Shown one piece after another: positions 1,582 through 2,632 of a stretch of 4,727 bases of DNA (positions are counted from its first letter, which is position 1; each line of letters opens with the position of its first letter). A program made the translations under genes and the position numbers. The notes under the pieces are model-generated. The model saw only the letters and a program-made list of their open reading frames with translations. It searched no databases and was not told the origin of the DNA. Origin of the DNA: Escherichia coli (lineage in GTDB: Bacteria > Pseudomonadota > Gammaproteobacteria > Enterobacterales > Enterobacteriaceae). The stretch lies in the NCBI RefSeq assembly GCF_011045215.1, contig NZ_CP049203.1; one strand, written 5' to 3'.

Positions 1582-1799
1582 TGCGTATGGCGGAAAAACG
1601 TAAATTTTGCCACCTGAAATAATTCTAATGCACTGATTCCAAAGAGAAATCATGCAAAACGCAGTTTTGCGACAGGTGTGGTGACAGCAGGTCAGAGAAG
1701 GGGCGGATTCAGATATGAATCCGGGCCAGATCCGGGCATTAAGGGGTTCCCGGAAACATGAATAAGATTGCCAGTGCACGGGGATTTTTAATCCCCTGC

Positions 1800-1866
1800 C
1801 CCGTTGAGCCGCTCCACGGCGAAAAGGGGAAAGTAAAGTTAGCTAACTTTACATGTCCTGCCCGGC
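1800..1866 (+). other. IncP (RP4/R751)-type oriT-like module with predicted nic between 1860 and 1861
   Basis: A perfect 20-bp palindrome gtaaagttagctaactttac (1833-1852) is followed after 8 nt by the predicted nick in ATGTCCTG/CCCGGC. RP4 has CTATCCTG/CCCGGC 8 nt from its inverted repeat. TCCTGCCCGGC is an 11 of 11 match. The upstream cccgttgagc...gcgaaaaggggaaagtaaag parallels RP4 CCCGTTGAGC...GCGAATAAGGGACAGTGAAG. Confidence 0.55.
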
Positions 1867-1980
1867 GTTCACCGGTGTTTATGGCGGGGAACTGAACCAC
1901 CGGACGGGTGGAAACATGTGTATTCCTGTGTGCCCCTGTGTAATCCGGTGGATTTGTGTGTGCAAAATTCCGTAGCCGGT

Positions 1981-2226
1981 TCACCTGCGCCTCGCCGGCT
2001 GCCAGGTAAACGTGTTCTCTGCGGCACGATATGCTTTTGTTCGTTGAGCCTTTGCGCTTCTCGCTCTGCGTTCTGCCCGAATCATTCTCAAAACTTTTGC
2101 ACGCACTTTTCGCTTAACTTCCCGTGGCAGCTCTTCTTTGTCGGATAACTGCAACTGCGCAGCCTGTAAGGCATACGCATCACTGATACGCTTACGTTCT
2201 GCCACTGTCAGTTTCACCCAATACAT
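1981..2226 (-). CDS. Small basic protein, possible ribbon-helix-helix relaxosome accessory factor (NikA/TraJ-like)
   Basis: 81-aa ORF with a good RBS (ccaGGGGGAtaggtATG). The N-terminal VKLTVAERKRISDAYA fits the beta-strand/helix pattern of TraJ (IKVYCLPDERRAIEEKAA) and NikA. The C-terminal half is very Arg/Lys-rich. The ORF lies between the oriT-like modules and reads away from unit A. The functional assignment is weak. Confidence 0.5.
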   Translation of the reverse strand: MYWVKLTVAERKRISDAYALQAAQLQLSDKEELPREVKRKVRAKVLRMIRAERRARSAKAQRTKAYRAAENTFTWQPARRR

Positions 2227-2315
2227 ACCTATCCCCCTGGCAACTTCCCGGAGTTATGCCTTTCGCTGTTTCCTGTTCGTTGTCGTTCGTCTGAGGTGTC
2301 GAGGCTGTGCCCTGA

Positions 2316-2391
2316 CCAGGCATTTTGTAGCACTGCCGCATCGGTGGCGGTGCTACAAAACATATCCTGTCCCGTCGATGGGGCAGGATAT
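2316..2391 (+). other. IncI1 (R64)-type oriT-like unit A with predicted nic between 2369 and 2370
   Basis: The inverted repeat ttttgtagcac (2323-2333) / gtgctacaaaa (2350-2360) is followed by CATATCCTG/TCCCG. This matches the MOBP nick consensus YATCCTG/Y and my recollection of R64 (..GGTATTACAATTGCACATCCTG/TCCCG). The nick core also sits in a second hairpin (2362-2373 with 2380-2391). Confidence 0.6.
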
Positions 2392-2438
2392 CACGTCCGT
2401 TAGTTTTCATCGTCCGGGGTGCAGGGGTGGCACTCCTG

Positions 2439-2498
2439 CCAGGCGTTTTGCTGAACGGCCATCACCGATGGCGGTTCAACAAAACATATCCTGTCCCG
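2439..2498 (+). other. IncI1 (R64)-type oriT-like unit B with predicted nic between 2493 and 2494
   Basis: The inverted repeat gttttgctgaac (2445-2456) / gttcaacaaaac (2474-2485) has one mismatch and an inner stem gccatc/gatggc. After 8 nt comes ATATCCTG/TCCCG. The flanks ccaggc...aaaacatatcctgtcccg are identical to unit A, 124 bp upstream. Confidence 0.6.
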
Positions 2499-2632
2499 CC
2501 TTTGCGTTCGCCGTTCGCGCATTGATGGCCAGCTTTGGCCAGTACACTGGCCATCACGCCGGGTCACTTTGTCAGATGTTAAAAAATCACGCGGTAAACG
2601 CCGTTATGCGCGGGTTTGCGCATGAAGCTCCC

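What the first reader, a model, noticed from the sequence alone, without database searches (positions are those of the whole stretch)
1780..2500. Relaxase-less plasmid with a cluster of three MOBP-type oriT-like sites (multi-helper hitch-hiker design)
Seen: no ORF in the window is long enough or looks like a relaxase. The only credible gene in the cluster is the 81-aa basic ORF. Three nic-like modules, all on the same strand, lie within about 700 bp. Established: small plasmids carrying only an oriT, or an oriT plus a nikA-like gene, can be mobilised in trans. From memory, a ColE1-type group (pCERC7-like, Moran and Hall) has variable segments next to the multimer resolution site and only NikA plus an R64-like oriT. 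Inference: this plasmid fits that backbone concept. It adds a P-type site and a duplicated I-type site, and its variable segment is a bacteriocin module rather than resistance genes.
Basis: partly seen in the sequence, partly recalled or inferred. Interest (0 to 1): 0.66.

Follow-up and report, generated by a model that had tools for sequence, protein, structure and literature searches.

The report
Relaxase-less ColE1 plasmid with four oriTs
This is a complete 4.7-kb bacteriocin plasmid with no DNA-transfer enzyme of its own; it carries four short "start-of-transfer" sites copied from four kinds of large conjugative plasmids, a hitch-hiking design already known from plasmids such as pEC156.

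Summary
The window is a whole circular ColE1-type plasmid: the 4727->1 junction is contiguous in independent assemblies, and no ORF matches a relaxase. Three MOBP-type nic modules lie on the + strand. They are an IncP-type site (nic ~1860/1861) and two I-complex-type sites (nic ~2369/2370 and ~2493/2494). The nic motif occurs 4 times against 0.26 expected by chance.

Each module matches the intergenic oriT of real conjugative plasmids:
- The P site matches the traJ-traK spacer of IncP-like plasmids.
- I-copy 1 is identical at 32/32 bases (nick-proximal arm plus nic) to an IncL/M-like plasmid.
- I-copy 2 is identical at 32/32 to a 55-kb E. coli MOBP/MPF_I plasmid.

- The two I sites share only 72% identity, so they are diverged variants and not a fresh duplication.
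- A fourth, F-type oriT (1340-1690) lies just upstream.
- The 81-aa ORF is not NikA-like, so this is not a pCERC7-type plasmid.

The closest precedent is pEC156, which has F-type and R64-type oriTs, has no mob genes, and has been shown experimentally to be mobilised. Function here is inferred and was not tested. Verdict: a new member of a known kind, of moderate interest.

The parts
1340..1690 (+). F-type (MOBF) oriT mimic. It holds GCACCG/CGGTGC repeats of the kind bound by TraM, then TTTGCGACAGGTGT^GGTG. The nic is predicted between 1679 and 1680. It lies outside the finding's coordinates but belongs to the same oriT island.
   Evidence: About 88% identity to the traM-SLT intergenic region of the conjugative IncFIC/MOBF plasmid pRHB01-C08_3 (L026). 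Homology stops 1 nt after the predicted nic. The nic position and the reading of the repeats as TraM sites rest on recalled knowledge of F oriT.
1798..1885 (+). IncP-type (MOBP) oriT mimic. It holds the conserved CCCGTTGAG...GCGAAAAGGGG block, a shortened inverted repeat GTAAAGTTAG/CTAACTTTAC (1833-1852) and the nick region ATGTCCTG^CCCGG. The nic is predicted between 1860 and 1861.
   Evidence: Window 1838-1881 is 95.5% identical to the traJ-traK spacer of IncP/MOBP/MPF_T plasmid p20171101CC-2 (L004). A second IncP-like lineage (L027) matches over 1800-1881. Rfam traJ-II hits 1791-1855 (- strand) at 29.5 bits, below the gathering score of 40.
1886..1965 (.). GTGTG-rich segment of unknown role, between the P-type oriT and the gene slot.
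   Evidence: It recurs in IncX1, IncK2/Z and IncFIA plasmids away from relaxase genes.
1981..2226 (-). 81-aa basic two-helix protein of unknown function. It occupies the slot that holds a ProQ/FinO gene in relatives. It is not NikA-like.
   Evidence: Homologues lie beside an I-type oriT in L021 and beside a NikA-like gene plus a 1423-aa gene in L017.
2290..2375 (+). I-complex-type (MOBP/MPF_I) oriT mimic, copy 1. It holds a small inverted repeat (2298-2316), a 15-bp inverted repeat (2323-2337 / 2346-2360) and the nick region CATATCCTG^TCCCG. The nic is predicted between 2369 and 2370.
   Evidence: The nick-proximal arm plus nic is identical at 32/32 to the site upstream of the NikA-like gene and relaxase gene of K. 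oxytoca pKOR-5873 (L016). A 30-base stretch is identical in Yersinia massiliensis plasmid L015. It is 81% identical to Klebsiella plasmid L007.
2362..2391 (.). Palindrome ATATCCTGTCCCGTC/GATGGGGCAGGATAT. It places the copy-1 nic core in a stem and creates an inverted nic-like motif on the - strand.
   Evidence: I19; dG -10.2, z -3.9. It is absent from the helper oriTs.
2415..2498 (+). I-complex-type oriT mimic, copy 2. It holds a small inverted repeat (2421-2439), an 18-bp inverted repeat (2446-2463 / 2467-2484) and the nick region CATATCCTG^TCCCG. The nic is predicted between 2493 and 2494.
   Evidence: The nick-proximal arm plus nic is identical at 32/32 to the oriT upstream of the NikA-like gene and relaxase gene in E. 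coli MOBP/MPF_I plasmids pRHB40-C10_2 (L009) and L010.
1100..1270 (.). cer-like multimer resolution site. It marks the boundary between the conserved backbone and the variable cargo.
   Evidence: Backbone homology to relatives begins at about 1113-1116. The XerCD core was recognised from memory of ColE1 cer.
2892..3086 (+). rop gene.
   Evidence: Pfam Rop, E 3.5e-31.
3835..3942 (+). RNAI of the ColE1-type replicon.
   Evidence: Rfam RF00106 at 44.7 bits, just under the gathering score of 47.
59..808 (-). Lysozyme-domain bacteriocin candidate (cargo), with a LexA box at 852-867.
   Evidence: Pfam Phage_lysozyme E 1.1e-9, T4 lysozyme matches in the PDB, LexA box.
4204..4683 (-). 159-aa candidate immunity gene. 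It follows the bacteriocin gene across the circular junction.
   Evidence: The gene order is conserved in L030-L034 and the junction is contiguous. It has no family hit.

Best explanation
The window is a complete 4.7-kb ColE1-type (RNAI/RNAII, rop, cer) bacteriocin plasmid. It encodes no relaxase, no coupling protein and no recognisable relaxosome accessory protein. Between cer and rop it carries an 'oriT island' of four origin-of-transfer mimics. All four have the nicked strand on the + strand:
- an F-type site (1340-1690),
- an IncP-type site (1798-1885),
- two diverged I-complex-type sites (2290-2375 and 2415-2498).

Proposed mechanism (inferred). When a conjugative plasmid of a matching lineage shares the cell, its accessory protein binds the nick-proximal arm of the matching inverted repeat. 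That protein would be TraJ for the IncP site, a NikA/MobA-like protein for the I-type sites, and TraY/TraM for the F site. The helper's relaxase then cuts 8 nt downstream at YATCCTG^Y (or at GGTGT^GGTG for F), stays bound to the 5' end, and pilots the small plasmid's T-strand through the helper's type IV secretion system. Because the recognition arms differ, each site should answer to a different helper. This widens the set of helpers, and so of hosts, that the plasmid can exploit.

Shown here: homology, architecture, polarity, completeness of the plasmid, absence of a relaxase, and co-residence of a close relative with a matching helper.

Inferred: nic positions, protein binding and actual mobilisation.
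For: Completeness and lack of a relaxase.

Nic motif enrichment: 4 hits against 0.26 expected.

P site. Window 1838-1881 is 95.5% identical to the traJ-traK spacer of an IncP/MOBP/MPF_T plasmid, and a second IncP-like lineage also matches. The alignment keeps the CCCGTTGAG and GCGAA.AAGGG blocks and the 8-nt spacing from repeat to nic. Relatives carry a full-length inverted repeat of another helper variant. Rfam traJ-II, which in effect models the IncP oriT region, gives a hit with E 8e-4.

I sites. Both lie in the same position and orientation as the oriT upstream of the NikA-like gene and relaxase gene in MPF_I plasmids. The arm plus nic is identical at 32/32 to two different helper lineages. 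The nick region is invariant across 11 sequences, and 6 stem pairs change on both sides (0 of 500 shuffles reach this). Pairing is 90%, against 34-59% when partners are slid.

F site: about 88% identity over roughly 270 bp to the traM-proximal oriT of a MOBF plasmid.

The island recurs with other cargo in at least five other plasmids.

E. coli strain RHB39-C22 holds both a close relative, pRHB39-C22_5, and the 55-kb helper-type plasmid pRHB39-C22_2, whose oriT matches copy 2.

Experimental precedent: pEC156, a ColE1-type plasmid with no mob genes, is mobilised by F and by R64 through its F-type and R64-type oriTs, and deleting them abolishes transfer (PMC4743918). pSe-Kan, also without mob genes, is mobilised by F (PMC9282650).
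Against: - No mobilisation, nicking or binding data exist for this plasmid or its close relatives. MOB-suite types the relatives as 'non-mobilizable', although that tool does not score these oriTs.
- The P-type inverted repeat is cut down from 19-bp to 10-bp arms, and its hairpin is weak (z -1.65).
- Similarity to the IncP helper ends about 25 nt past the nic, so the region where TraK binds in RP4 (recalled knowledge) is not conserved.
- The Rfam hit is below the gathering score.
- Two direct repeats with an identical nick core should be deleted whenever one relaxase uses both, and a relative with a single hybrid site exists.
- The palindrome at 2362-2391 could bury the copy-1 nic in a stem.
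Confidence: 0.75

Rival explanations
1. The sites are fossils. They would be scars left by past relaxase-mediated or homologous recombination with conjugative plasmids, now non-functional or only partly functional. The plasmid would spread mainly by other routes such as transduction, transformation or cointegration at cer.
For: - Homology to helpers and to other plasmids breaks exactly at the nic sites. The F-type stops 1 nt after the nic. The 25 nt after the P-type nic recur in IncX1, IncK and IncF plasmids without the repeat.
- The P-type inverted repeat is truncated.
- cer-linked cointegrates exist.
- About 61% of ColE1 plasmids lack a relaxase anyway (PMC8683028).
Against: - The recognition arm plus nic is perfectly conserved (32/32) while flanks have diverged to 72%, and the stems show compensatory changes. 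That pattern indicates purifying selection and not decay.
- The same short P-type form is kept in unrelated small plasmids (L028, L029).
- The island persists across plasmids with different cargo.
- Equivalent oriT-only plasmids have been shown to be mobilised (PMC4743918).
Confidence: 0.15
2. This is a pCERC7-type system. The 81-aa ORF would be a divergent NikA-like (RHH) accessory protein that binds the adjacent I-type repeats and recruits a helper relaxase.
For: - The ORF sits where nikA/mobA sits relative to the oriT in helpers, on the - strand directly left of copy 1.
- It is small and basic. Its N-terminus 'KLTxAERKR' could form an RHH-like strand (inference).
- Homologues are again found next to an I-type oriT (L021) and next to a NikA-like gene followed by a 1423-aa gene (L017).
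Against: - hhalign against a NikA/MobA alignment gives probability 0.1.
- No Pfam, NCBIfam, PHROG or PDB sequence hit to RHH, MobC or NikA.
- The AF2 model is a long two-helix hairpin with no Foldseek match.
- A distant family member weakly hits DUF3811/YjbD instead.
- Relatives keep the same oriTs with a ProQ/FinO gene in the slot.
- The ORF's orientation relative to the oriT differs in L021.
- In L017 a true NikA-like gene is present as well.
Confidence: 0.07
3. The hairpins in 1780-1860 are RNA elements, either targets of an antisense RNA or of the ProQ/FinO protein found in relatives, and are not a DNA transfer origin.
For: - There is an Rfam traJ-II 'cis-regulatory RNA' hit.
- A ProQ/FinO RNA-chaperone gene lies next to this segment in relatives.
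Against: - The traJ-II consensus is the reverse complement of the IncP nick region plus inverted repeat. The hit therefore restates oriT homology.
- The segment maps to the traJ-traK spacer, the oriT locus in IncP plasmids.
- The window lacks the ProQ/FinO gene yet keeps the segment.
- No promoter-like site was found in 1600-2950.
Confidence: 0.03

Closest known systems
pEC156 (also pKPN2, pSe-Kan, pColG): ColE1-type plasmids without mob genes that carry both an F-type and an R64-type oriT
   Same: ColE1 replicon with cer and rop/rom, no relaxase, more than one oriT type placed side by side, and non-resistance cargo. pEC156 is mobilised by both F and R64drd11, and loses this when the oriTs are deleted (PMC4743918). 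pSe-Kan is mobilised by F (PMC9282650).
   Different: The window has four sites instead of two. It adds an IncP-type site and a second, diverged I-complex site. Its I sites match IncL/M-like and a 55-kb E. coli MPF_I lineage better than they match R64. Its cargo is a lysozyme-type bacteriocin. The pEC156 sequence was not in the collections, so no direct alignment was made.
pCERC7 / NTP16 / pU302S group (Moran and Hall 2017)
   Same: Small ColE1-type plasmids with no relaxase, variable segments next to the multimer resolution site, and an I-complex-type oriT (description in PMC9282650).
   Different: That group is defined by an identical NikA (53% identical to R64 NikA) and one conserved oriT. 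The window has no NikA-like gene and has several oriTs.
pBuzz (Moran and Hall 2019)
   Same: A relaxase-less small plasmid with two I-complex-type oriTs, reported as mobilised by a B/O plasmid. This is known here only from citations in PMC11389934 and PMC6807383.
   Different: pBuzz is a rolling-circle plasmid and its two oriTs are inversely oriented. Here the replicon is ColE1-type, the I-type sites are direct, and F-type and P-type sites are added.
pOriT plasmids in general (Ares-Arroyo, Coluzzi and Rocha 2023)
   Same: Plasmids with an oriT but no relaxase, dependent on conjugative or mobilizable helpers. About 12% of oriT-bearing E. coli plasmids have more than one oriT, and up to 5 are seen. 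F-like, R64-like and RP4-like oriT families are recognised (PMC10123127).
   Different: In that survey, plasmids with several oriTs tended to encode several relaxases. Here four oriTs of three MOB/MPF classes sit on a 4.7-kb plasmid with no relaxase.
Staphylococcal oriT-mimic plasmids (pWBG749 family helpers)
   Same: Non-conjugative plasmids that carry mimics of helper oriT subtypes. Specificity is set by the repeat bound by the accessory protein (PMC4652767, PMC8136818).
   Different: Different phylum, different relaxase family and different sequences. The resemblance is in concept only.

Membership tests
oriT-only (relaxase-less) mobilisable plasmid, 'pOriT' | No relaxase gene anywhere on the complete replicon | tested here: met
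   All ORFs of at least 40 aa were listed. The 13 ORFs scanned, including every one of 100 aa or more, gave no relaxase or Mob hit in Pfam, and five proteins including the 81-aa ORF were also scanned against NCBIfam with the same result. The circular junction is contiguous in other assemblies.
oriT-only (relaxase-less) mobilisable plasmid, 'pOriT' | Carries sequence homologous to the oriT of a conjugative or mobilizable element | tested here: met
   Four segments map to the oriT-bearing intergenic regions of MOBF, IncP-like MOBP and MPF_I MOBP plasmids.
oriT-only (relaxase-less) mobilisable plasmid, 'pOriT' | Is transferred when a helper supplies the relaxase and the T4SS | not testable with these tools
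   This needs mating assays. The only circumstantial evidence is that a close relative co-resides with a matching helper in strain RHB39-C22.
pCERC7-type NikA plasmids | Encodes the conserved NikA relaxosome accessory protein (RHH; about 53% identical to R64 NikA) | tested here: not met
   The 81-aa ORF against a NikA/MobA profile gives hhalign probability 0.1. It has no NikA-like, MobC or RHH Pfam hit. No other candidate ORF exists.
pCERC7-type NikA plasmids | Variable segment adjacent to the multimer resolution site on a small ColE1-type backbone | tested here: met
   Backbone homology to relatives spans about 1116-4000. The cargo occupies 4000-4727 plus 1-1115 and abuts cer.
pCERC7-type NikA plasmids | The group's own, nearly invariant oriT (pEC34A type; about 78% identical to R64; 20-bp repeats) | not tested
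   pU302S (AY333433) was not in the collections. The description comes from PMC9282650 only.
IncP-type (RP4-like, MOBP) oriT | Nick region YATCCTG^Y | tested here: met
   The window has ACATGTCCTG^CCCGG at 1851-1865. This is one mismatch from the consensus and identical to the IncP-like helper L004. The consensus is recalled knowledge (Pansegrau and Lanka).
IncP-type (RP4-like, MOBP) oriT | 19-bp inverted repeat ending 8 nt before the nic (the TraJ site on the nick-proximal arm) | tested here: inconclusive
   The spacing is kept and the 16-nt proximal arm is identical to L004. The repeat is shortened to 10-bp arms by loss of about 20 central nt, and the hairpin z-score is -1.65.
IncP-type (RP4-like, MOBP) oriT | Reaches the Rfam traJ-II gathering score (this model covers the IncP oriT/traJ leader) | tested here: not met
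   29.5 bits against a gathering score of 40. The outer helix and the repeat centre are missing.
I-complex-type (R64 / IncL/M-like, MOBP, MPF_I) oriT | Small GC-rich inverted repeat, a 17-18-bp inverted repeat, and a nick region CAYATCCTG^TCCC 8 nt downstream | tested here: met
   Both copies align column for column with R64 and five other helper oriTs. The nick region is invariant and the stems covary.
I-complex-type (R64 / IncL/M-like, MOBP, MPF_I) oriT | The nick-proximal arm (NikA-binding repeat A) matches that of a known helper | tested here: met
   Copy 1 is 32/32 identical to pKOR-5873. Copy 2 is 32/32 identical to pRHB40-C10_2. R64 itself matches only 25/33 and 23/33.
F-type (MOBF) oriT | Nic sequence GGTGT^GGTG preceded by TTTGCG, with TraM/TraY/IHF site regions on the traM side | tested here: met
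   TTTGCGACAGGTGTGGTG lies at 1665-1683. About 270 bp upstream is 88% identical to the traM-proximal oriT of L026. Individual protein sites were not mapped.
NikA/MobC-type RHH accessory proteins (for the 81-aa ORF) | Sequence or fold similarity to RHH relaxosome accessory proteins | tested here: not met
   The monomer model cannot exclude a strand formed on dimerisation.

The most novel reading that the evidence does not exclude
All four sites work, giving this 4.7-kb relaxase-less plasmid a helper range across MOBF/MPF_F, IncP MOBP/MPF_T and two MOBP/MPF_I lineages. On this reading the island is a modular array that is built and reshuffled by relaxase-catalysed nic-to-nic recombination. The evidence would be the homology breaks at the F and P nics and the hybrid single I site in CP117577. 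The interchangeable slot gene (ProQ/FinO, or the 81-aa YjbD-like protein) would act as a helper-independent nucleic-acid-binding factor that aids T-strand processing or establishment.
Probability: 0.12. Interest if true: 0.6.

Novelty: new member of a known kind. Interest (0 to 1): 0.35.

Why it matters
Most ColE1-type plasmids lack a relaxase, and typing tools call them non-mobilizable (about 61% lack one, PMC8683028). This plasmid is a compact, clear example of how such plasmids can still travel. It stacks mimics of several helpers' transfer origins, each matched base for base to a different helper lineage. If the sites work, plasmids of this backbone have a much wider helper and host range than their annotation suggests. 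The backbone also carries other cargo and forms cointegrates. The two diverged I-type sites and the alternative P-type repeat variants in relatives form a natural series for studying oriT specificity. The concept itself is established (pEC156, pBuzz, pOriTs), so the value is incremental.

Tried and rejected
- NikA hypothesis for the 81-aa ORF. Pfam, NCBIfam and PHROGs scans, hhalign against NikA/MobA, a PDB profile search, an AF2 model plus Foldseek and an exhaustive profile search gave no link. There is only a near-threshold DUF3811/YjbD hit for a distant member.
- Frameshifted longer gene across 1739-2226. Rejected, because relatives show a clean cassette swap with a ProQ/FinO gene.
- A relaxase outside the window. 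Rejected by junction contiguity.
- A ColE1-type bom/nic between rop and ori. No match with up to 3 mismatches.
- The hairpin at 1781-1797 followed by ATCCCCTGCCCC as a separate nic module. Rejected: it aligns with the distal, non-nic part of IncP oriTs.
- An identical plasmid in PLSDB or in complete E. coli genomes. None was found; the best hit covers 55% of the window.
- Host identification through the bacteriocin gene. Only an 89% relative turned up, on a contig labelled Pseudomonas sp., plus more distant Enterobacterales hits.
- Direct comparison with pEC156, pU302S, pSe-Kan, RK2 and R64 (AP005147). Those accessions are absent from the collections. R64 was obtained as NC_005014.
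Full report
WHAT THE WINDOW IS. The 4727 bases are a ColE1-type replicon. They hold RNAI at 3835-3942 (Rfam RF00106, 44.7 bits), rop at 2892-3086 (Pfam Rop, E 3.5e-31) and a cer-like site near 1100-1270. The cargo is a lysozyme-domain protein (59-808, - strand; Pfam Phage_lysozyme, T4 lysozyme matches). 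A perfect LexA box precedes it at 852-867. A 159-aa ORF (4204-4683, - strand) follows it across the ends of the window. Other assemblies show base 4727 joined directly to base 1. One metagenome scaffold repeats the unit head to tail, and a Logan contig is 100% identical over 4654 bases. The window is therefore a whole circular plasmid. No listed ORF matches a relaxase or any Mob protein.

THE OBSERVATION. A MOBP-type nick core (ATCCTGYCCSG, up to 1 mismatch) occurs three times on the + strand, at 1855-1865, 2364-2374 and 2488-2498. It occurs once inverted at 2379-2389. That is 4 hits against 0.26 expected, and 0 of 200 shuffles reached 4. Each + strand core lies 8 nt after an inverted repeat. 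Folded as single-stranded DNA, the segments holding the two long repeats are far more stable than shuffles (z -3.3 and -4.2). The short P-type hairpin is weaker (z -1.65).

THE IncP-TYPE SITE (1798-1885).
- Window 1838-1881 is 95.5% identical to a stretch of the 51-kb IncP/MOBP/MPF_T plasmid p20171101CC-2. That stretch lies between traJ and traK, which is where IncP plasmids have their oriT. A second IncP-like lineage (43 kb, L027) matches 1800-1881 at the same locus.
- The alignment shows the conserved CCCGTTGAG and GCGAA.AAGGG blocks. The proximal arm AGTTAGCTAACTTTAC is identical, and so is the nick region ACATGTCCTG^CCCGG.
- The window has lost about 20 central bases of the 19-bp repeat, which leaves a perfect 10-bp palindrome. 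Two unrelated small plasmids (L028, L029) carry the same short form. Two relatives (CP117577 and a 72-kb E. marmotae plasmid) instead carry a full-length repeat that matches the other IncP-like lineage.
- The sub-threshold Rfam traJ-II hit (29.5 bits against 40) is the same signal. That model's consensus is the reverse complement of the IncP nick region and repeat.
- The hairpin at 1781-1797 that opens the finding's coordinates is only the distal edge of this oriT and is not a nic module.

THE TWO I-COMPLEX-TYPE SITES (2290-2375 and 2415-2498).
- Both map to the spacer directly upstream of the NikA-like gene and the relaxase gene in MOBP/MPF_I conjugative plasmids of Klebsiella, Yersinia, Serratia and E. 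coli. The orientation is the same as in the window.
- Eleven sequences, including R64, were aligned. The nick region CA(T/C)ATCCTGTCCC is invariant.
- Both the small and the long inverted repeats are kept through compensatory changes. Six pairs change on both sides, which 0 of 500 shuffles reach. Pairing is 90%, against 34-59% when partners are slid.
- The two window copies are only 59/82 identical (72%).
- Copy 1's 32-nt proximal arm plus nic is identical to K. oxytoca pKOR-5873. Copy 2's is identical to the 55-kb E. coli plasmid pRHB40-C10_2. R64 matches 25/33 and 23/33.
- They are therefore two diverged specificity variants, and not a fresh duplication of an R64-like site.

A FOURTH oriT, MISSED BY THE FINDING. 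Window 1430-1680 aligns at about 88% with the traM-SLT spacer of the conjugative IncFIC/MOBF plasmid pRHB01-C08_3. The alignment includes the GCACCG/CGGTGC repeat field. It ends in TTTGCGACAGGTGT^GGTG, which matches the F-family nic context as I recall it. Homology stops 1 nt after the predicted nic. The nicked strand is again the + strand. No ColE1-type bom/nic is present.

THE GENE IN THE CLUSTER.
- The 81-aa ORF (1981-2226, - strand) is conserved, with homologues at 57-96% identity. An exhaustive profile search found about 22 clusters.
- It is not NikA-like. It has no Pfam, NCBIfam or PHROG hit. hhalign against NikA/MobA gives probability 0.1. A PDB profile search gives nothing meaningful. 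The AF2 model (pLDDT 81) is a two-helix hairpin with no Foldseek match. One distant member nearly reaches the DUF3811/YjbD threshold.
- In the closest relatives the flanks are the same, but the slot holds a 117-124-aa ProQ/FinO-family gene. The window still keeps the first codons of that gene, with ATG changed to ATA, just upstream of the ORF (read from the alignment).
- Homologues of the ORF also lie beside another I-type oriT on 3.9-kb ColE1 plasmids. On a 40.8-kb contig one lies beside a NikA-like gene followed by a 1423-aa gene.
- The association with I-type transfer regions is therefore recurrent but unexplained.

FAMILY AND ECOLOGY.
- The island (cer, F, P, slot, one or two I sites, rop) recurs with other cargo in Escherichia plasmids of 5-7 kb. 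It also occurs in cointegrates and inside large IncF plasmids.
- E. coli RHB39-C22 carries both the relative pRHB39-C22_5, which is typed 'non-mobilizable', and the 55.5-kb MOBP/MPF_I plasmid pRHB39-C22_2, whose oriT matches copy 2.
- CP117577 has a single I site made of the copy-1 repeat joined to the copy-2 downstream flank. That is the product expected from recombination between the two direct copies at, or across, the nic core.

MECHANISM. The best-supported reading is trans-mobilisation. A co-resident helper's accessory protein binds the matching proximal arm. The helper's relaxase nicks 8 nt downstream and pilots the + strand through the helper's T4SS. The differing arms give each site a different helper. 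This is inference from homology, architecture and precedent. Nothing here shows nicking or transfer.

Weak points:
- The P-type repeat is truncated.
- Homology on the side where TraK binds in RP4 is lacking.
- Direct repeats that share a nick core are expected to be unstable.
- The palindrome at 2362-2391 may sequester the copy-1 nic.

COMPARISON WITH WHAT IS KNOWN.
- Relaxase-less ColE1 plasmids are the majority; only about 39% encode a relaxase (PMC8683028).
- oriT-only plasmids are a recognised class. About 12% of oriT-bearing E. coli plasmids have more than one oriT (PMC10123127).
- pEC156 is a ColE1-type plasmid with no mob genes. It has adjacent F-type and R64-type oriTs, is mobilised by both helpers, and loses this when the oriTs are deleted (PMC4743918). 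pSe-Kan is mobilised by F without mob genes (PMC9282650).
- pCERC7-type plasmids are defined by a conserved NikA (PMC9282650), which the window lacks. It is therefore not a member of that group, although the 'cargo next to cer' layout fits.
- The window is best filed as a new member of the pEC156-like multi-oriT pOriT kind. It is unusual only in the number of sites (four) and their breadth (MOBF, IncP-type MOBP and two MPF_I MOBP lineages) within about 1.2 kb.

VERDICT. Novelty is a new member of a known kind. Interest is 0.35.

Noticed in passing
window 1340-1690: A complete F-type oriT mimic lies just upstream of the finding's coordinates and has the same polarity. It is about 88% identical to the traM-SLT spacer of an IncFIC MOBF plasmid and has the nic context GGTGT^GGTG. 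The oriT island therefore has four members, not three.
   Followed up: yes
window 2362-2391: The palindrome ATATCCTGTCCCGTC/GATGGGGCAGGATAT places the copy-1 nic core in a 13-bp stem (z -3.9). It also creates an inverted nic-like motif on the - strand. Relatives have it but the helper oriTs do not. Its role is unknown.
   Followed up: partly
window 1857-1965; L005, L006, L024, L025: The 25 nt just after the P-type nic and the GTGTG-rich segment recur in IncX1, IncK2/Z and IncFIA plasmids, far from any relaxase gene. The homology begins at the nic core. The F-type homology likewise ends 1 nt after its nic. Both look like footprints of nic-site recombination.
   Followed up: partly
window 1965-2250; L001 1189-1563; L002 1452-1802; L014 3061-3438: The slot between the P-type and I-type oriTs holds either a ProQ/FinO-family gene or the 81-aa ORF. 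The window keeps the first codons of the ProQ-like gene with ATG changed to ATA. The ProQ/FinO gene plus oriT pair also sits inside a 90-kb IncF plasmid.
   Followed up: partly
L002 (CP117577) 1830-1960: This relative has one hybrid I-type site, made of the copy-1 repeat and the copy-2 downstream flank. That is the product expected if the two direct copies recombine at the nic core.
   Followed up: partly
window 2560-2860: Three copies of an AAAGTGACGCACA-like motif and two palindromes (2633-2667, and about 2818-2854) lie upstream of rop. One palindrome is conserved in the 3.9-kb plasmids (L021). Their function is unknown.
   Followed up: no
window 59-898 and 4204-4683: The cargo is a 249-aa protein with a Gly/His/Ser-rich N-terminus and a T4-lysozyme-like domain, behind a perfect LexA box, followed by a 159-aa orphan ORF that is a candidate immunity gene. 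The identical protein is listed in 107 blocks of the contig collection, and the longest carrying contig is 2-5 kb in 87 of them. It looks like an undescribed pesticin-style bacteriocin module.
   Followed up: partly
L031, L032, L034: Contigs of 8-13 kb join this plasmid to a module with a PF03090 Replicase gene and a T6SS Hcp gene. cer is duplicated at the joints, which suggests Xer-mediated cointegrates.
   Followed up: no
L017 10880-11270: On the 40.8-kb contig that carries an 83-aa homologue of the ORF, the spacer upstream of the NikA-like gene has a different inverted repeat and an array of CCCACA-rich repeats. This may be a different oriT type.
   Followed up: no
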